A stretch of 64,000 nt of DNA, from the IMG/VR virus record IMGVR_UViG_3300045988_158394. One strand, given 5' to 3'. The number at the start of each line of letters is the position of its first letter. Within the stretch, counting starts at the first letter, position 1. Origin of the DNA: a virus. Lineage: Duplodnaviria > Heunggongvirae > Uroviricota > Caudoviricetes. Below are positions 11,663 through 64,000 of the stretch, piece by piece. The notes below the pieces were generated by a model. That model was not told the DNA's origin. It was given only the letters and a program-made list of their open reading frames with translations, and did no database searches. The position numbers and the translations under genes were made by a program.

Positions 11663-11679
11663 AATGCTCTAATAAATTT
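11663..11679 (+). promoter_or_regulatory. C1-repressor operator (16/17 match to ATTGCTCTAATAAATTT) ahead of the immI operon
   Basis: AATGCTCTAATAAATTT in the AT-rich intergenic region upstream of c4/icd/ant. Confidence 0.65.
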
Positions 11680-11866
11680 GTATTTTTAAGTCACGAATGC
11701 TATCTTTTCGCATCATATTGACCTTTTAATCGTTCAGGCTTATAGTTCCGCCGTCGTAGCAAATTCTGCGACCGGGTTTAGCAGCCTGAATGATTGTGCG
11801 GACAGCCGCAGATATCCGATATTGCGGTATTTTTGTGTCCGTAAAACCGCGTTACGCCCAAATTAT

Positions 11867-11943
11867 GGTGGGGCGTGATGGGGAGGCTTCGGCCTGCTGG
11901 TTTCACAATCGCCAGTCTGCTAACCCCGTCACGTCCTGCCACC
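11867..11943 (+). ncRNA. c4: c4-type antisense RNA (tRNA-like fold, about 77 nt)
   Basis: GGTGGGGCGTGATGGGG...CCCCGTCACG..CCTGCCACC forms a closed stem; internal CCTGCTGG and TCTGCTAAC are complementary to TAGCAGG and TTTAGCAG just downstream, ahead of icd. Boundaries approximate. Confidence 0.5.
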
Positions 11944-11993
11944 TGTTTAGCAGCGGGTAGCAGGTTGTTAAACCTGATTGTGAGGCCGTAACT

Positions 11994-12215
11994 ATGGTTA
12001 ATGCCAATCCTTGCGCACGCCCAGAATTCATCTGGCGTTTCTATTCCTGTAAAAAACACCACTATCACTTCGTTATCGCAGCAACTGAAGACGAAGCACG
12101 CTCTCAATTGCCTGATGGCCCCTGCATTTTTACTGCCCGTTTTTCAACTAACTCGCGCAATTCACTTAGTTACTGGAGCCTCCCCTTCTCTGCCGACGTT
12201 CAGGGGGTTTTATGA
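11994..12215 (+). CDS. icd: Icd (interference with cell division), 73 aa
   Basis: 73-aa ORF immediately after the c4 region; stop overlaps the ant start (ATGA); same length and position as P1 icd. Confidence 0.7.
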   Translation: MVNANPCARPEFIWRFYSCKKHHYHFVIAATEDEARSQLPDGPCIFTARFSTNSRNSLSYWSLPFSADVQGVL

Positions 12216-13255
12216 AAAAACCTCTCGTCACCCGTAATGACATAGCCGAAGCGATCGCCCTGCATACTGCCTGTATGCCGACACGGGAGATCCCCGGCGC
12301 AATTGCCAACTATTTCATGATAACCAGGCGTTTTTATACCCGAACAGATAAGGCTGTGATCAACAGGCTACTGATAGCCGAGATCAGGGATTATTTGATT
12401 GAACAAGGACGTCTACGTTACGCAACGGTGGCAGCAGAAATGAGAAAGGAGGCACATAGAATGACCAGTAATAATTTGAATGTTAAAAAACCAGCATCTG
12501 TTGCTTCAGCTACGCCATCACCAGCTGTGAATGTTATCTCCAACACTGGAGATACAATCGACAGCCAGACGCTGTTAAAGATGGTTAATGAGGCGCGCAA
12601 GCTATGTGGGGAAAATGAGATCCGCAATAACGATTTTCTCAATAGAATTAAGGATGAACTTGATGGGGAATTTTACGAAACTTTCGTAAAATCCCATGGC
12701 ACAAGGGCCGGGCGCTCTTTTGAGGTCATAACCATGACCTACAAACAAGCCCTGCGAGTCGCCGCGCGCGAGTCAAAAGCGGTCCGCCGTTCGCTGATCG
12801 ACAAACTGGAAGAATTACAGCAGGCAAACTCCCCTACCCCATCGATCCCCCAGACATTACCAGAAGCCCTACGCCTGGCTGCCGAGTTAGCAGAACAGAA
12901 AATGCAGTTGGAACAACAGCTGGTGGCCGCAGCCCCTAAAGTCGATTTTGCCGACCGGGTATCAGTGGCCAATGGAATCCTGATCGGGAACTTTGCAAAG
13001 GTCGTTGGACTTAAGCAAAACGCCCTTTTCTCATGGTTGCGCCAGAATGGCATTCTCATGGCTTTTGGAGCGCGCAAAAACGTACCGCGCCAACAGTACA
13101 TCAACGCCGGGTATTTCACGGTGAAAGAAGTGGTGCTGAATGATGAAAATGGCTACCAGATACGGCTGACGCCCCAATTAACGGGTAAAGGCCAGCAGTG
13201 GTTAACTCGCAAGCTACTTGATGCTGGTTTGTTAAAACCAGTAGCAATAGGTTAA
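12212..13255 (+). CDS. ant1: Antirepressor Ant1, with in-frame internal start giving Ant2 at 12461
   Basis: 347 aa; strong AAGGAGG RBS precedes internal ATG at 12461; C-terminal KilAC-like domain (ILIGNFAKVVGLKQNALF...GKGQQWL). Confidence 0.75.
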   Translation: MKKPLVTRNDIAEAIALHTACMPTREIPGAIANYFMITRRFYTRTDKAVINRLLIAEIRDYLIEQGRLRYATVAAEMRKEAHRMTSNNLNVKKPASVASATPSPAVNVISNTGDTIDSQTLLKMVNEARKLCGENEIRNNDFLNRIKDELDGEFYETFVKSHGTRAGRSFEVITMTYKQALRVAARESKAVRRSLIDKLEELQQANSPTPSIPQTLPEALRLAAELAEQKMQLEQQLVAAAPKVDFADRVSVANGILIGNFAKVVGLKQNALFSWLRQNGILMAFGARKNVPRQQYINAGYFTVKEVVLNDENGYQIRLTPQLTGKGQQWLTRKLLDAGLLKPVAIG

Positions 13256-15390: not shown

Positions 15391-15464
15391 TACAATCGTT
15401 GCGGGTGCTTGAGGCTATCTGCTTCAGGCATTACCCGAAAAGCAGATAGAAGAAAGCCCCAGAT

Positions 15465-15530
15465 AACATTACGCGTCCTGCAAGACGCTTAACATTAATC
15501 TGAGGCCATATCTATGCTTAGCATACGTAG
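15465..15530 (-). ncRNA. Putative Sok-like antisense RNA (position inferred)
   Basis: Inferred from hok/sok organisation: antisense to the mok-like leader/start region. No promoter verified; boundaries are a guess. Confidence 0.25.
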
Positions 15531-15571
15531 ATTAGCCTCTTACCGACCAAAAGGTCAAGGAGAAGCAGGCT

Positions 15572-15727
15572 ATGAAGCAGCAAAAAGCGATGTTAATCGC
15601 TCTGATCGTCATCTGTTTAACCGTCATTGTGACGGCACTGGTAACGAGGAAAGACCTCTGCGAGGTACGAATCCGAACCGGCCAGACGGAGGTCACTGTC
15701 TTCACAGCCTACGAATCTGAAAGGTAA
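15572..15727 (+). CDS. hok: Hok/Gef-family type I toxin (51 aa)
   Basis: MKQQKAMLIALIVICLTVIVTALVTRKDLCEVRIRTGQTEVTVFTAYESER aligns with Hok; AGGAGA RBS; the overlapping 15514-15720 ORF is the mok-like frame; leader resembles the hok mRNA 5' region. Confidence 0.75.
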   Translation: MKQQKAMLIALIVICLTVIVTALVTRKDLCEVRIRTGQTEVTVFTAYESER

Positions 15728-59182: not shown

Positions 59183-60376
59183 GTGACCTGGGACGATCAC
59201 AAAAAGAATTTTGCTCGCCTGGCGCGAGATGGTGGTTACACCATCGCACAGTATGCCGCCGAGTTTAATCTTAACCCTAATACCGCACGTCGTTATCTCC
59301 GTGCCTTCAAAGAAGACACCAGGACTGCGGACAGCCGCAAGCCAAATAAGCCAGTCAGGAAGCCACTAAAAAGCATGATCATTGATCACTCTAATGATCA
59401 ACATGCAGGTGATCATATTGCGGCTGAAATAGCGGAAAAACAGAGAGTTAATGCCGTTGTCAGTGCCGCAGTCGAGAATGCGAAGCGCCAAAATAAGCGC
59501 ATAAATGATCGTTCAGATGATCATGACGTGATCACCCGCGCCCACCGGACCTTACGTGATCGCCTGGAACGCGACACCCTGGATGATGATGGTGAACGCT
59601 TTGAATTCGAAGCTGGCGATTACCTGATAGATAACGTTGAAGCGCGGAAGGCCGCGCGCGCTATGTTGCGTCGGTCCGGGGCCGATGTTCTGGAAACCAC
59701 TCTTCTTGAAAAGTCTCTTTCTCATCTCCTTATGCTGGAGAACGCCAGGGATACGTGTATTCGCCTGGTGCAGGAAATGCGCGATCAGCAAAAGGACGAT
59801 GATGAAGGTACTCCGCCTGAATACCGTATCGCGAGCATGCTAAACAGCTGTTCCGCGCAGATAAGCAGCCTGATCAACACCATTTACAGCATCCGGAATA
59901 ACTATCGAAAAGAAAGCCGGGAGGCGGAAAAGCACGCTTTGTCTATGGGGCAAGCTGGCATTGTTAAGCTGGCATACGAACGAAAGCGTGAAAATAACTG
60001 GTCAGTGCTGGAAGCAGCTGAATTCATCGAGGCGCATGGCGGGAAAGTGCCGCCCCTGATGCTGGAGCAAATCAAAGCCGATCTGCGTGCTCCGAAGACC
60101 AATACCGATGATGAGGAAAGGCAAACAGCCGTCGGTGGCCCTTCTCTTGAAGATCTGGACAAAGTTGCGCGAGAACGGGCCGCCAACCGCCGCGCCGATG
60201 CCGCATTGTGGATTGAGCAGCGTAGGGAAGAAATCGCCGATATCGTTGATACAGGCGGTTATGGAGATGTTGATACTGAAGGTGTATCAAACGACCCATG
60301 GCTGGAACAAGACCTGGACGAAGACGAGGAGGAAGACGAAGAAGTTACCCGCAAGCTATACGGGGATGATGATTAA
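59183..60376 (+). CDS. pacA: Terminase small subunit PacA (contains pac site)
   Basis: 397 aa; GTG start after AAGGAAG; the GATC-rich pac site lies inside the 5' part; acidic C-terminus. Confidence 0.8.
59374..59536. other. pac packaging site (Dam-methylatable hexanucleotide clusters)
   Basis: Four TGATCA/G-type elements at 59375-59416 and three at 59505-59534, about 162 bp in all, as described for P1 pac. Confidence 0.8.
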
Positions 60377-61860
60377 TGGCCAGAAGTTGCGTAACGGATC
60401 CACGTTGGCGCGAGCTGGTGGCGCTATATCGTTATGACTGGATTGCTGCCGCTGATGTTTTGTTCGGCAAAACACCTACCTGGCAGCAGGATCTGATTAT
60501 TGAGTCTGTGCAGGAACAGGGTAGCAAGACATCTGTTTCGTCTGGTCACGGTACCGGGAAATCAGACATGACTTCTATCATGATCATGTTGTTCATAATC
60601 ATGTATCCCGGTGCCCGCGCCATTATCGTTGCGAACAAAATTCAGCAGGTAATGACCGGTATATTCAAGTACATCAAGATAAACTGGGCTACTGCCACCA
60701 GCCGTTTCCCATGGCTTGCTGATTATTTTGTTCTGACAGAAACCGCTTTCTATGAGGTTACTGGTAAAGGTGTATGGACTGTAGTACCGAAGGGCTTTCG
60801 TCTGGGAAGTGAAGAAGCTCTCGCCGGTGAACACGCAGATCATCTTCTGTATATTATCGATGAAGCCTCCGGTGTCAGTGATAGAGCTTTCGGTATCATC
60901 ACCGGTGCTCTTACCGGACAGGATAACCGCATCTTATTGCTGTCACAGCCTACACGCCCAAGCGGCTATTTCTACGATACTCACCATAAACTGGCCAAGC
61001 GTCCTGGTAACCCTGATGGCGTTTATACGGCGATCACGCTTAACAGTGAGGAATCACCGCTGGTAACGCCAGCATTTATCAAAATGAAGCTGGCGGAGTA
61101 CGGCGGTCGCGATAACCCTATGTACATGATTAAGGTACGCGGCCTATTCCCTAAATCACAGGATGGCTTCCTTCTTGGACGTGATGAGGTTGAACGTGCA
61201 ACGCGGCGGAAAGTCAAGATTGCAAAAGGATGGGGCTGGCTTGCATGTGTGGACGTTGCTGGTGGTACGGGACGGGATAAGTCCGTTATCAATATCATGA
61301 TGGTGTCCGGCCAGAGAAATAAACGCCGTGTAATCAACTATCGAATGCTGGAATACACAGACGTTACAGAAACGCAGCTTGCCGCCAAAATTTTCGCAGA
61401 ATGTAATCCTGAGCGATTCCCAAATATTACCATAGCGATAGACGGCGATGGCCTGGGTAAAGCAACGGCGGATCTGATGTACGAGTATTATGGTATTACC
61501 GTACAGCGTATACGCTGGGGTAAAAAGATGCATAGCCGTGAAGATAAGAGCCTGTACTTTGATAAACGTGCTTATGCCAACGTTCAAGCCGCAGAGGCCG
61601 TAAAATCTGGTCGTATGAGACTGGATAAGGGTAATGAAACTATTGAGGAAGCGTCGAAAATCCCTGTAGGGATTAACTCCGCAGGTCAATGGAAGGTGAT
61701 GAGTAAGGAGGATATGAAGAAAAAACTCAACCTGCACTCACCAGACCATTGGGATACATATTGTTTCGCTATGCTGGCGGATTATGTTCCCCAGGACGAA
61801 GTGCTTAGCGTCGAAGACGAAGCGCAGGTTGATGAAGCTCTGGCATGGCTTAATGAATGA
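60376..61860 (+). CDS. pacB: Terminase large subunit PacB
   Basis: 494 aa; Walker-A-like SSGHGTGKS, Walker-B-like [10 protein letters not shown]; start overlaps the pacA stop. Confidence 0.8.
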
Positions 61861-61863
61861 ATA

Positions 61864-61880
61864 TTTGCTCTAATAAATTG
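61864..61880 (+). promoter_or_regulatory. C1-repressor operator (15/17) heading the second immI-like module
   Basis: TTTGCTCTAATAAATTG, 4 bp after the pacB stop. Confidence 0.6.
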
Positions 61881-62011
61881 TGTTTTTTAACTACCGATGT
61901 TACATTGAACCTGACCTCTTGCGCCTTGAGGCATTTTCGGTTTATGCTTATCAGGCACCTCAGTAAAACGGGTGCCGGGATTGAGACCCCGGATAATGCA
62001 AAAGGCGACAC

Positions 62012-62034
62012 AGACGCCAAAAGCGTCTTTTTTT
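62012..62034 (+). terminator. Terminator/attenuator hairpin in the leader of the second immI-like module
   Basis: AGACGC-CAAAA-GCGTCT followed by TTTTTTT. Confidence 0.55.
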
Positions 62035-62083
62035 GTGTCATGCCATCGCACAGCCATACGTAGCGTTTAGCTCAGAGATCAAT

Positions 62084-62159
62084 GGTAGTGCTGGCTGGGC
62101 TGCCGAAAGGCAGGCCGGTTCCCTTTTGCGCCGGTAGTCTCAACCCAGTCAGTGCTACC
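62084..62159 (+). ncRNA. c4-like antisense RNA, second diverged copy
   Basis: GGTAGTGCTGG...CCAGTCAGTGCTACC closing stem with internal hairpins, same position relative to icd' as the first c4; GTCTCAA is complementary to TTGAGAC downstream. Confidence 0.4.
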
Positions 62160-62219
62160 GCCATTGAGATTGAGACCTCACGCGGTAGCTCCTTAAATTA
62201 GCAAAAGGAGGCTGCCATT

Positions 62220-62441
62220 GTGGCTACTATCCCTACCCCTGCTCATCCTGAATTTATCTGGCGCTTTTACTCCTGCCAAAAACGTCACTATCACTTCGTT
62301 ATTGCACCGACAGAAGATGAGGCACGTTCTCAGCTTCCGGATGCTCCCTGTATTTTCTCTGCCCGCTTTTCTACCGATTCGCGCAATTCTCTCAGTTACT
62401 GGTGCCTCCCTGTTAACGCTTCTGCTCAGGAGGGACTATGA
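62220..62441 (+). CDS. Icd paralogue (73 aa)
   Basis: MATIPTPAHPEFIWRFYSCQKRHYHFVIAPTEDEARSQLPDAPCIF... clearly paralogous to Icd at 11994-12215; GTG start after AAGGAGG; stop overlaps the next start. Confidence 0.7.
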   Translation: MATIPTPAHPEFIWRFYSCQKRHYHFVIAPTEDEARSQLPDAPCIFSARFSTDSRNSLSYWCLPVNASAQEGL

Positions 62442-63550
62442 GAACGTCATTAGTCACCCGTGAAGAGATGATCGAGGCAATTGAACAGCACACTGCCTGT
62501 ATCAGTACCAGGGATATACCGGGCGTTATTGCCAACTACTTCATGATCACCAAACAACTTTACCGGAGAAAGGACAAACACGCGGTTCACCGCATTCTGC
62601 TAACCGATATCCGTGAATACCTGCTCGAACAGGGTCATCTGAATTACGCAACCGTCGCAGCCGAAGCACGCAAGGAGGCACACAGAATGAAAGCAACTAA
62701 CGTTAAATCAGAAAAAATTTATGCACCTTCAGTTCAGGAATCGGAACTGGTGGTTGTTCAGAATCAGCCGGATGAAATTCCCGTTCTGGAATGGCAGGGA
62801 GTACGTGTCGTGACAACCGAAACTCTTGCTAGAGGGTATGGGGTCGATGAAGCCAATATTCGCAACAATTTGTCTCGCAACCTTGACCGCTTTGAAGCAG
62901 GTAAGCATTACTTTCTTCTAACTGCTTTAAAATTAAGAGAATTTAAGAACAGAGTAACCGGAAGTTACTCTGTTGGTAAGAACGCCAGAAGCCTTACACT
63001 CTGGACAGAGCGCGGCGCTGCACGCATGTCTAAGATCGTGGACACAAATGAAGCATGGGCATTCTTTGAAAAACTGGAAGACAGCTACTTCCGGCAAAAA
63101 GAACAGCAACCGGTTGCAATCCCCCAGACGCTTCCAGAAGCTCTGCGCCTGGCTGCCGAACTGGCTGAACAAAAGCAGCTTCTGGAACAGAAAGCCCACC
63201 AGCTAAATCAGCAGCTGGTGGCCGCCGCTCCTAAAGTCGATTTTGCCGACCGGGTATCAGTAGCTAAAGGGATCCTGATTGGGAATTTTGCAAAGGTTGT
63301 TGGACTTAAGCAAAACGCGCTGTTTGCCTGGTTACGGGAGAACGGCATCCTGATAGCGTCCGGTGGACGTAAAAATGTGCCGTTCCAGCAGTACATCAAT
63401 GCGGGGTATTTCACGGTGAAAGAAGTGGTGCTGGATGATGAAGATGGCTACCAGATACGGTTGACGCCTCAATTAACGGGTAAAGGCCAGCAGTGGTTGA
63501 CGCGTAAACTGCTCGATGCTGGCTTGTTAAAACCGGTGGCGGCTGAATAA
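62438..63550 (+). CDS. Antirepressor paralogue with Bro-N-like middle domain and KilAC-like C-terminus (internal start at 62687)
   Basis: 370 aa; N-terminal 80 aa paralogous to Ant1; conserved AAGGAGG before internal ATG 62687; central Bro-N-like segment; C-terminus near-identical to Ant1. Confidence 0.7.
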   Translation: MRTSLVTREEMIEAIEQHTACISTRDIPGVIANYFMITKQLYRRKDKHAVHRILLTDIREYLLEQGHLNYATVAAEARKEAHRMKATNVKSEKIYAPSVQESELVVVQNQPDEIPVLEWQGVRVVTTETLARGYGVDEANIRNNLSRNLDRFEAGKHYFLLTALKLREFKNRVTGSYSVGKNARSLTLWTERGAARMSKIVDTNEAWAFFEKLEDSYFRQKEQQPVAIPQTLPEALRLAAELAEQKQLLEQKAHQLNQQLVAAAPKVDFADRVSVAKGILIGNFAKVVGLKQNALFAWLRENGILIASGGRKNVPFQQYINAGYFTVKEVVLDDEDGYQIRLTPQLTGKGQQWLTRKLLDAGLLKPVAAE

Positions 63551-63582
63551 TGGAAGAATGCCCGGTTGATGCCGGGCATAAT

Positions 63583-64000
63583 TTATTGCGCGCTTTCGGG
63601 GTTGTCGTTTACTGGCTGCCCCTTCTTGGTTTTACGGCTGCGCGTAACTGATGCGGCTGACTTAACCTTTTTCTCTTCGCGAGTGATGGCAATTTGTTTT
63701 TTTACATTTTCAATATCTGCCAGGCGATATATTTTTGCCTGCGGCCAGCGGTCGCAGATGATCGGTTCTATGGAGTCATAAAGGCTAAATTTTGCTTTTT
63801 CGAATTCACCGTTGATGATAATTCCATCACGGAGAGTTTCATCGCAGATAAACACGCCACACAGTGGCACATGGTAACTAACTGATTTACCATCATTGTA
63901 GTTAGGGCTACTGGAAATGTAGTGGACGCGCAGCATTGTTTCGCTAAAGCCGTGTACGCGCATACGGAATTTTTCATCCTCCGGGTACTGCCTCATTAGC
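63583..64000 (-). CDS. c1: Probable C1 repressor, C-terminal portion (gene starts beyond window end)
   Basis: Minus-strand frame open to the window edge, convergent on the ant-like gene; position as expected for c1. Identity not verifiable here. Confidence 0.45.
   Translation of the reverse strand, partial: LMRQYPEDEKFRMRVHGFSETMLRVHYISSSPNYNDGKSVSYHVPLCGVFICDETLRDGIIINGEFEKAKFSLYDSIEPIICDRWPQAKIYRLADIENVKKQIAITREEKKVKSAASVTRSRKTKKGQPVNDNPESAQ

What the first reader, a model, noticed from the sequence alone, without database searches (positions are those of the whole stretch)
61864..63550. Second, diverged immI-type immunity module between pacB and the probable c1 gene
The operator, leader terminator, tRNA-like c4-type RNA, 73-aa icd paralogue and antirepressor with a conserved internal Ant2-type start are all repeated here with diverged sequence. 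The c4-like RNA differs in its predicted recognition loops and the antirepressor carries a Bro-N-like domain in place of the Ant1 central domain. As far as I recall, canonical P1 has c1 directly after pacB, so this looks like an acquired or duplicated second antisense-RNA-controlled antirepressor system that could alter immunity specificity. I cannot confirm from memory that it is absent from described P1-like genomes.
Basis: partly seen in the sequence, partly recalled or inferred. Interest (0 to 1): 0.8.

Follow-up and report, generated by a model that had tools for sequence, protein, structure and literature searches.

The report
Second antisense-RNA-gated antirepressor module
This P1-like phage-plasmid carries, between its packaging gene pacB and its repressor gene c1, a complete second copy of the small-RNA-controlled "antirepressor" switch that sets phage immunity. 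The switch is real and probably functional, but it is common in relatives of P1 and belongs to a known kind.

Summary
Window 61861-63582 is a 1.7-kb module that replaces the 24-bp pacB-c1 spacer of reference P1. It holds:
- a C1 operator over a promoter;
- an IsrK-type leader carrying target boxes a1 and b1 and a terminator;
- a C4-family antisense RNA (Rfam, 75 bits);
- boxes a2 and b2 over the ribosome-binding site of a 73-aa icd;
- a translationally coupled 370-aa antirepressor with a nested Ant2-type start.

Its c4 loops (GUCUCAA, CCUUUUGC) differ from those of the window's canonical immI. That canonical c4 is identical to P7's.

Across relatives, the loops and all four target boxes change together, giving at least five specificity types. 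This is strong comparative evidence that the RNA-target pairing is under selection. icd and ant are under purifying selection.

The module is not new as a sequence. It is in phages RCS47 (deposited annotation calls only ant there), JL22 and 673R5, in 309 PLSDB plasmids, and in 303 of 5426 complete E. coli genomes. One paper mentions it as "ant plus two orfs". The leader and c4 belong to the phage D6 / Gifsy-1 IsrK lineage. The central protein domain is ORF6N, not Bro-N.

Most likely it acts as a second, heteroimmune lock on C1. That function is inferred, not shown.

The parts
61864..61880 (+). C1 repressor operator (TTTGCTCTAATAAATTG), starting 4 bp after the pacB stop codon
   Evidence: 2 mismatches to ATTGCTCTAATAAATTT. 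The window has 11 sites against 0.42 expected. The operator sequence is invariant in all 7 pacB-c1 variants compared.
61878..61906 (+). Putative C1-controlled promoter: -35 TTGTGT (61878-83, overlapping the operator), 17-bp spacer, extended -10 TGtTACATT (61898-61906)
   Evidence: Read from the sequence. Module 1 has the same geometry (TTGTAT 11678-83, 17 bp, TGcTATCTT). In P1 the annotated promoter P2c4/P51a has its -35 overlapping operator Oc4. The tool's own consensus scan did not call it.
61919..61948 (+). Putative constitutive leader promoter: -35 TTGCGC (61919-24), 18-bp spacer, -10 TATGCT (61943-48). The predicted start is near 61955.
   Evidence: It lies 7 nt upstream of position 1 of the Rfam isrK match. 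The TTGCGC box and its spacing are conserved in D6, whose -10 is TATATT. It is positionally analogous to P1 P1c4/P51b. Inferred only.
61955..62035 (+). IsrK-type leader RNA with box a1 (TTGAGAC 61981-87), box b1 (GCAAAAGG 61998-62005) and an intrinsic terminator (62012-28 plus U7)
   Evidence: Rfam isrK RF01394, 58.2 bits against gathering 50. Terminator scan. Complementarity to the c4 loops.
62082..62162 (+). c4-type antisense RNA. The mature form is predicted at about 62084-62162 (79 nt) by homology with the annotated P1 c4. Loop b' is CCUUUUGC (62122-29). Single-stranded a' is GUCUCAA (62137-43).
   Evidence: Rfam C4, 75 bits. Fold z -5.6. 13 of 27 pairs show compensatory changes and 95.8% of cells are paired, with 0 of 500 shuffles as good.
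62170..62211 (+). Downstream targets a2 (TTGAGAC 62170-76) and b2 (GCAAAAGG 62201-08). b2 overlaps the icd Shine-Dalgarno sequence AAGGAGG (62205-11).
   Evidence: Exact complementarity to a' and b'. Both boxes co-vary with the loops in all variants.
62220..62441 (+). icd paralogue (73 aa, GTG start). Its stop codon overlaps the ant start (ATGA at 62438-41).
   Evidence: 79% identical to icd of module 1. NCBIfam NF033153, 49.8 bits. dN/dS 0.06-0.22 against variants.
62438..63550 (+). Antirepressor, Ant1-type long form (370 aa). Ant1-like N-terminus (aa 1-83), ORF6N centre (aa 116-200, nt 62783-63037), KilAC/ANT C-terminus (aa 258-359, nt 63209-63514).
   Evidence: BLASTP against the window's Ant1. 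Pfam. dN/dS 0.22-0.33.
62687..63550 (+). Nested Ant2-type short form (287 aa), from an in-frame ATG preceded by AAGGAGG (62672-78)
   Evidence: The Shine-Dalgarno sequence and ATG are conserved with module 1. The position is that of the ant2 CDS annotated in P1 and P7.
63558..63579 (.). G+C-rich hairpin between the convergent ant and c1 genes. Probably a shared terminator.
   Evidence: Terminator scan: 9 pairs, 6 of them G-C. The c1 stop codon follows at 63583.

Best explanation
Window 61861-63582 is a second, independent immI-type switch that gates an antirepressor. Its sequence organisation follows P1/P7 immI and the Gifsy-1 IsrK locus.

In a lysogen:
- C1 sits on the operator (61864-80) and shuts the strong upstream promoter.
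- A weaker downstream promoter still makes the leader.
- Most transcripts stop at the leader terminator, giving an IsrK-like RNA of about 78 nt.
- Read-through transcripts are processed to a c4 RNA of about 79 nt.
- Loops a' and b' of c4 pair with boxes a2 and b2. This covers the icd ribosome-binding site, so icd is not translated. The translationally coupled ant is then not translated either.

When C1 is absent (fresh infection) or fails:
- Transcription outruns c4.
- The a1/b1 leader copies can titrate c4.
- Icd and the two Ant forms are made, and Ant inactivates C1.

The loops of this c4 (GUCUCAA / CCUUUUGC) share no 7-nt or longer complementarity with the targets of the window's other c4, which is P7-type. 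The element therefore carries two locks with different keys. As a prophage it should silence the ant genes of incoming phages of either c4 type. As an infecting phage it should escape a resident prophage that makes only one of the two c4 RNAs.

Shown here: the anatomy, family membership, loop-target co-variation, purifying selection and prevalence. Inferred: transcription, RNA processing, repression, the target of Ant, and the effect on immunity.
For: - Rfam gathering-level matches to C4 and isrK.
- The operator matches the C1 consensus and is invariant across 7 variants.
- a' and b' are exactly complementary to a1/a2 and b1/b2, and b2 lies over the Shine-Dalgarno sequence.
- Five specificity types occur on this backbone. 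In each, the loop and both of its targets changed together. The a and b alleles occur in all four combinations.
- c4 stems keep pairing through 13 double changes.
- Between variants, divergence is concentrated in the leader-c4-target block (59-80% identity) while the flanks stay 94-100% identical.
- icd and ant show dN/dS of 0.06-0.33. Of the 10 PGAP-annotated full-length copies inspected, 8 are intact, one is frameshifted and one has an internal stop.
- The icd stop overlaps the ant start (ATGA), and the nested Ant2 start is conserved.
- Gifsy-1 has the same isrK-then-C4-then-antirepressor order. Experiments there show a 77-nt terminated leader, a processed RNA of about 80 nt, and trans-activation of antirepressor translation by the leader (PMC4825925).
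- P1 annotation of Oc4, P2c4/P1c4, a1, b1, c4, a2, b2, icd, ant1 and ant2 provides the template.
Against: - There are no expression data for this module.
- The two promoters are weak consensus matches found by eye. The tool's scan did not call them.
- The centre of Ant is replaced by an ORF6N domain, so binding to C1 is not assured.
- Some copies in other plasmids are frameshifted or carry an internal stop.
- The P7-type c4 has two 6-nt complementarities near the icd-2 start (62198-203 and 62217-22). These are at about chance level by my estimate, but some cross-talk is not excluded.
Confidence: 0.7

Rival explanations
1. The RNA gate works as described, but this Ant does not act on C1. Its swapped ORF6N centre directs it to the repressor of another resident prophage (lambdoid, Stx or D6-like). 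The P1-like element would then induce or disarm neighbours when it enters lytic growth.
For: - The ORF6N centre is 40-54% identical to antirepressors of Stx and other lambdoid phages.
- It is the most variable protein segment between variants, at 74-87% against 94-100% for the flanks, as expected for a target-recognition part.
- Trans-acting antirepressors that work across prophages are documented in Salmonella (PMC3121763, listed; not read here).
Against: - The N-terminal 83 aa and the C-terminal ~146 aa are those of P1-type Ant1, nearly identical at the C-terminus.
- The nested Ant1/Ant2 arrangement is kept.
- The module is wired to a C1 operator and sits beside c1.
Confidence: 0.18
2. The selected product is the c4 RNA alone, acting as a defensive immunity determinant that silences ant of incoming D6-type or RCS47-type phages. 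On this view icd and ant are passengers or are decaying.
For: - This c4 is loop-identical to that of phage D6.
- Some ant copies elsewhere are frameshifted or carry an internal stop.
Against: - dN/dS is well below 1 for icd and ant.
- Targets a2 and b2 co-vary with the loops in every type. A passenger target would not be expected to do so.
- 8 of the 10 PGAP-annotated full-length copies inspected are intact.
Confidence: 0.07
3. The module is the ancestral state, and reference P1 and P7 lost it by deletion. On this view it is not an acquired addition.
For: - Filled and empty junctions are about equally common: 303 against 308 E. coli genomes.
- The 24-bp P1 spacer shares ATGCCGG with the hairpin at the right end of the module.
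- No IS element or target duplication flanks the module.
Against: - The leader-c4 block is of the D6/IsrK lineage and is mosaic.
- The same cassette type occupies the canonical immI site in other P1-like plasmids, which fits a mobile cassette.
- Direction cannot be decided without a phylogeny. This rival concerns history, not mechanism, and is compatible with the best explanation.
Confidence: 0.3

Closest known systems
immI operon of phages P1 and P7 (Oc4/Op51 operator, c4 antisense RNA, icd, ant1/ant2)
   Same: - Same order of parts: operator over a promoter, a1 and b1, terminator, c4, a2 and b2 over the icd ribosome-binding site, icd coupled to ant, and nested ant1/ant2.
- icd is 79% identical and Ant 57% identical.
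   Different: - Location: pacB-c1 rather than sim-kilA.
- c4 is only distantly similar in sequence and has different loops.
- The leader is isrK-type. It does not reach the gathering score of Rfam c4-a1b1 in the window.
- The Ant centre is an ORF6N domain.
- It is present in addition to a P7-identical immI.
The same pacB-c1 insert in phage RCS47 (FO818745), JL22, vB_EcoM-673R5, pTZ20_1P and hundreds of P1-like plasmids
   Same: - Same site and same flanks.
- 88-99.8% nucleotide identity.
- Invariant operator and promoter region.
   Different: - Variants differ in c4 specificity. RCS47 has b' CCUUUGAC. pCUPF12A has a' GUUCCAA. The 673R5 class has a different c4 altogether.
- Variants also differ in the Ant centre.
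- The window's type equals JL22.
immI-like region of phage D6 (orf83 icd, orf82 Rha/Roi-type antirepressor)
   Same: - Leader, c4 and the start of icd are 95-97% identical.
- Loops and targets are identical.
   Different: - D6 has no C1 operator upstream.
- D6 has a different antirepressor protein.
Gifsy-1 isrK-orf45(STnc1160)-anrP locus of Salmonella (Hershko-Shalev et al. 2016, PMC4825925)
   Same: - An isrK-family leader is directly followed by a C4-family RNA and an antirepressor-like gene.
- In both, the leader carries the a1/b1-type boxes. In Gifsy-1, Rfam c4-a1b1 overlaps isrK.
   Different: - No icd. The short ORF used for coupling overlaps the C4 region.
- It is not under a P1 C1 operator.
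- The downstream effect there is through antiterminator AntQ.
- About 69% identity is the level seen for lambdoid relatives.

Membership tests
Rfam C4 antisense RNA (RF01695) | Covariance-model score at or above the curated gathering score | tested here: met
   75.0 bits against 45, E 8e-13, full-length model match at 62078-62165.
Rfam C4 antisense RNA (RF01695) | Long closing stem enclosing two hairpins and a single-stranded segment, maintained by compensatory changes | tested here: met
   27 pairs, 95.8% of cells paired, 13 pairs with changes on both sides, 0 of 500 shuffles as good; slid controls reach 28-53% paired.
Rfam C4 antisense RNA (RF01695) | Two exposed elements (a', b') complementary to a target pair upstream (a1, b1) and a target pair downstream (a2, b2), with b2 at the ribosome-binding site | tested here: met
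   7- and 8-nt exact matches at 61981, 61998, 62170 and 62201. These co-vary across five types.
Rfam C4 antisense RNA (RF01695) | Stable RNA of about 77 nt processed from the operon transcript, repressing ant in trans | not testable with these tools
   Needs a Northern blot or RNA-seq, plus reporter assays.
P1/P7 immI operon | C1 operator overlapping the operon promoter | tested here: met
   Operator at 61864-80. The -35 overlaps its 3' end, as for P1 Oc4/P2c4. The promoter itself is only a sequence inference.
P1/P7 immI operon | icd ORF translationally coupled to ant1, with ant2 nested in frame | tested here: met
   NF033153 match. ATGA overlap at 62438-41. Shine-Dalgarno sequence plus ATG at 62672-89, in frame.
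P1/P7 immI operon | Position between the sim genes and kilA/repL | tested here: not met
   The module lies between pacB and c1. The canonical site in this window (11663-13255) holds a separate, P7-identical immI.
P1/P7 immI operon | The Ant1/Ant2 complex binds and inactivates C1 | not testable with these tools
   Only the Ant1-like N- and C-terminal segments are conserved. Biochemistry is needed.
Rfam isrK (RF01394) leader | Gathering-level match, own terminator, and a C4 RNA directly downstream as in Gifsy-1 | tested here: met
   58.2 bits against 50. Terminator. Gifsy-1 has isrK at 34240-34316 followed by C4 at 34131-34214 on the same strand.
   No Bro-N match even at E<=10. ORF6N (PF10543) matches at E 4e-18.
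Phage antirepressor KilAC/ANT family (PF03374) | C-terminal ANT domain above the gathering score | tested here: met
   109.5 bits against 25.3, aa 258-359.

The most novel reading that the evidence does not exclude
P1-like phage-plasmids may run a combinatorial, multi-lock immunity code. On this reading there are two independent c4-gated antirepressor cassettes per genome. Each has two short recognition boxes (a and b) that reassort freely, plus a separately diversifying antirepressor centre. Carrying a second lock would make an element dominant over single-lock relatives: it escapes their immunity but remains immune to them. It would also link its immunity to that of another phage genus (D6), which uses the identical c4. 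That would be an RNA-based arms race shaping which phage-plasmids, many of them carriers of resistance genes, can coexist or displace each other.
Probability: 0.4. Interest if true: 0.55.

Novelty: new member of a known kind. Interest (0 to 1): 0.35.

Why it matters
P1-like phage-plasmids are frequent carriers of ESBL and other resistance genes. Which of them can superinfect, displace or coexist with one another depends on immunity. Roughly half of the P1-like elements in complete E. coli genomes carry this extra switch, yet deposited annotation is incomplete and uneven. RCS47 calls only ant, JL22 calls 'Roi' and hypothetical ORFs, and PGAP calls Icd-like and antirepressor proteins plus an 'ash family protein' ORF over the c4 RNA. 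None of these marks the RNA genes.

Recognising it as a second c4 lock has three uses:
- It gives a concrete, testable explanation for heteroimmunity patterns among these elements.
- It offers a typing scheme based on the a/b box alleles.
- It ties the P1 c4 literature to the separately described Salmonella IsrK system.

It is not a new kind of mechanism.

Tried and rejected
- **Bro-N assignment of the Ant centre.** Rejected. Pfam gives ORF6N only.
- **Recent duplication of module 1.** Rejected. dS against module 1 is saturated, and the leader-c4 block is 95-97% identical to D6.
- **Cross-reaction between the two c4 RNAs.** RNAduplex energies on loop segments with flanking stem bases were too noisy to interpret. 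Exact-complement search shows no cross matches of 7 nt or more. It finds two 6-mers of the P7-type c4 near the icd-2 start. I estimate roughly 0.5 such matches per element by chance, and the start-codon context is not conserved in D6 or RCS47.
- **Signs of transposition at the module ends.** None found. The module exactly fills the interval between the pacB and c1 stop codons. Whether it was gained or lost is unresolved.
- **Literature.** Gilcrease & Casjens 2018 (phage D6) is not held by DOI or PMC id. The original RCS47 paper did not appear among the 25 listed of 41 papers that mention RCS47. The JL22 paper does not mention the module. The SJ46 paper contains none of the antirepressor or immunity terms, and none of its displayed passages discusses the module.
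- **NCBIfam.** It has no model hit for the 39-aa ORF over c4 that PGAP names 'ash family protein'.
Full report
**Context**

The window is a P1-like phage-plasmid. pacA and pacB run on the + strand (59183-61860). The 3' part of c1 lies on the - strand from 63583.

In reference P1 (NC_005856), pacB stops at 93206 and the convergent c1 stops at 93231. Only 24 bp separate them. Aligning the junctions by eye shows that window 61861-63582 fills exactly the interval between the two stop codons. The finding's coordinates (61864-63550) therefore cover essentially a whole 1.7-kb insert.

Yes. All parts are present.

- **Operator.** TTTGCTCTAATAAATTG at 61864-80 differs from the 17-bp C1 operator consensus only at its first and last bases. 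The window has 11 such sites against 0.42 expected from shuffles.
- **RNAs.** Rfam at gathering thresholds finds a C4 antisense RNA at 62078-62165 (75 bits, E 8e-13). Upstream it finds an isrK-family RNA at 61955-62033 (58 bits). The canonical immI of the same window gives C4 at 11861-11946 and c4-a1b1 at 11740-11792.
- **Fold.** The c4 fold is far more stable than shuffles (-46.4 kcal/mol, z -5.6).
- **Terminator.** An intrinsic terminator closes the leader at 62012-28 plus T7.
- **Proteins.** The 73-aa ORF at 62220-62441 is 79% identical to the first icd and matches NCBIfam phage_ICD_like. The 370-aa ORF at 62438-63550 is 57% identical to the window's Ant1. Residues 1-83 and about 225-370 are conserved and the middle is unalignable.
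- **Domains.** Pfam places ORF6N at aa 116-200 and KilAC/ANT at aa 258-359. Bro-N is not matched even at E<=10.
- **Nested start.** The in-frame ATG at 62687, preceded by AAGGAGG, reproduces the Ant2 start of module 1 and of P1/P7.
- **Coupling.** The icd stop overlaps the ant start (ATGA).

**Anatomy of the RNA switch**

The unpaired parts of this c4 are the hairpin-2 loop CCUUUUGC (b') and the segment GUCUCAA (a').

- Exact complements lie upstream in the leader: a1 TTGAGAC at 61981-87 and b1 GCAAAAGG at 61998-62005.
- Exact complements also lie downstream: a2 at 62170-76 and b2 at 62201-08.
- b2 overlaps the icd Shine-Dalgarno sequence AAGGAGG.

The window's first c4 is base-for-base the P7 c4. 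Its loops are CUGCUAA and CACAAUC, with targets TTAGCAG and GATTGTG. P1 itself has a different pair of alleles.

Between the two modules of this window, the second c4 has no complementarity of 6 nt or more to module 1's targets. The P7-type c4 has only two 6-nt matches near the icd-2 start, and no cross match of 7 nt or more exists. I judge those two 6-mers to be at about chance level. The start-codon context is also not conserved in relatives.

Two promoter-like sites can be read from the sequence.

- TTGTGT-17-TGtTACATT has its -35 overlapping the operator. It has the same geometry as module 1 and as the P1 promoter P2c4.
- TTGCGC-18-TATGCT ends 7 nt before the first base of the isrK match. 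Its -35 box and spacing are conserved in D6.

These promoters are inferences. The consensus scan did not call them.

**Evidence from relatives**

This was the most informative test. I collected the module from 13 other loci and located each c4 with its complementary boxes. On the D6-type backbone there are five specificity types.

| a box / b box | Found in |
|---|---|
| TTGAGAC / GCAAAAGG | this window, JL22, D6 |
| TTGAGAC / GTCAAAGG | RCS47, an O177:H21 plasmid |
| TTGGAAC / GTCAAAGG | pCUPF12A at pacB-c1, the D6-like pF8704 |
| TTGGAAC / GCAAAAGG | pWP5-S18 and pF1140-3, at the canonical immI/kilA site |
| TTGGCCT / GTCTAAGG | 673R5, pO103, pOkiPb, APEC17; a much more diverged c4 |

- In every case the loop in c4, the upstream box and the downstream box changed together. 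The only imperfections are single G-U pairs in the last type.
- The two a alleles and two b alleles of the near-identical backbone occur in all four combinations.
- The c4 helices themselves keep pairing through 13 double substitutions.
- Segment-wise identity shows where variation sits. Against the 673R5 class, the operator/promoter block is 99% identical. icd and the ends of ant are 94-100% identical. The leader is 79-80%, c4 59% and the target region 60%. The Ant centre is a second variable patch at 74-87%.
- icd and ant evolve under purifying selection (dN/dS 0.06-0.33).

Together these results argue that the RNA-target pairing is functional and that its specificity is what diversifies.

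**How it most likely works**

The parts match P1 immI one for one. In Gifsy-1 the same isrK-C4-antirepressor order is found. Gifsy-1 also has experimental support: a 77-nt terminated leader, a processed RNA of about 80 nt complementary to it, and activation of antirepressor translation by the leader in trans (PMC4825925).

I therefore infer the following sequence of events.

1. C1 closes the strong promoter in the lysogen.
2. Basal transcription supplies c4.
3. c4 masks the icd ribosome-binding site, which blocks the coupled ant.
4. Loss or absence of C1 lets transcription, and the a1/b1 decoys, overcome c4.
5. Icd and Ant are then made.

Because the two c4 RNAs of this element have unrelated keys, the element has two locks. 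It should silence incoming ant genes of either type. It should also escape a resident prophage that makes only one of the two c4 RNAs. That Ant-2 targets C1 is inferred from its Ant1-like ends, its C1 operator and its position. The swapped ORF6N centre leaves room for another target.

**Comparison with what is known**

The insert is not new as a sequence.

- It lies between pacB and c1 in phage RCS47, where it is annotated only as 'ant'. It is also there in JL22 ('Roi' plus hypothetical ORFs) and in 673R5.
- It is found in 309 PLSDB plasmids at 80% coverage or more.
- It is found in 303 of 5426 complete E. coli genomes, almost always on plasmids. By comparison, 308 genomes have the P1-type empty junction.
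- Venturini et al. 2019 mention it as two hypothetical ORFs plus ant (PMC6906374).
- The isrK-C4 tandem is also present at about 69% identity in some 80 Stx and lambdoid phage records. A few of those annotate both RNAs.

I did not find two things in the searchable literature. One is a description of this insert as a complete second c4 circuit with its own specificity series. The other is a link between IsrK and P1 c4: a 2025 review treats them as separate systems. Key subscription papers were not available, so this absence is weak evidence.

**Verdict**

This is a real, well-formed and probably functional second immI-type module. It is a member of the known C4/IsrK-gated antirepressor kind, it is common among P1 relatives, and it has been partly noted before. 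Interest is moderate to low. The worthwhile residue is the two-lock, reassorting-key reading, which is testable with simple genetics.

Noticed in passing
window 11861-11946 (and 11740-12000): The canonical immI c4, its a1/b1 leader and its a2/b2 region are base-for-base identical to P7, not P1. In immI terms this element is P7-type plus D6-type.
   Followed up: yes
window 62082-62201; L011 2629-2748; L012 602-721: PGAP annotates a 39-aa 'ash family protein' ORF that coincides with the c4 RNA gene. It is probably an artefact of a conserved RNA, and is positionally equivalent to Gifsy-1 'orf45'. NCBIfam gives no hit for it.
   Followed up: partly
L018 (Gifsy-1) 34131-34329, minus strand: In Gifsy-1 the Rfam families isrK and c4-a1b1 overlap, and a C4-family RNA follows directly. 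IsrK therefore appears to be the a1/b1 leader of a c4-type module. Rfam lists isrK outside the C4 clan, and the IsrK paper does not mention phage P1.
   Followed up: partly
L016 752-832 and L017 752-832 (pWP5-S18, pF1140-3): In these P1-like plasmids a D6/isrK-type c4-icd-ant cassette, with its own operator-like site, occupies the canonical immI position next to kilA. The search found only one ant-like place in each record. This suggests the cassette can sit at either site.
   Followed up: partly
window 62687-63109 (Ant aa 84-224): The ORF6N centre of Ant is a second hypervariable patch between otherwise 94-100% identical variants (74-87%). It may be a protein-level specificity determinant.
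   Followed up: partly
window 62220: icd of this module starts with GTG here and in JL22. RCS47, D6 and the 673R5 class have ATG at the same position.
   Followed up: no
window 15403-15577: A strong Rfam sok antitoxin match (115 bits) lies just downstream of the repL region, implying a hok/sok-type addiction locus there. I did not check whether reference P1 has one at this place.
   Followed up: no
L009 (E. coli APEC17 chromosome, 3566324-3575986): A P1-like segment (lpa, pacA, pacB, the module, c1, coi, cre, ref) is recorded in a chromosome rather than a plasmid. This is either an integrated P1-like prophage or an assembly join.
   Followed up: no
window 32495-32645 and 34120-34192: Three tRNA genes are present. 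I did not compare them with the P1 tRNA set.
   Followed up: no
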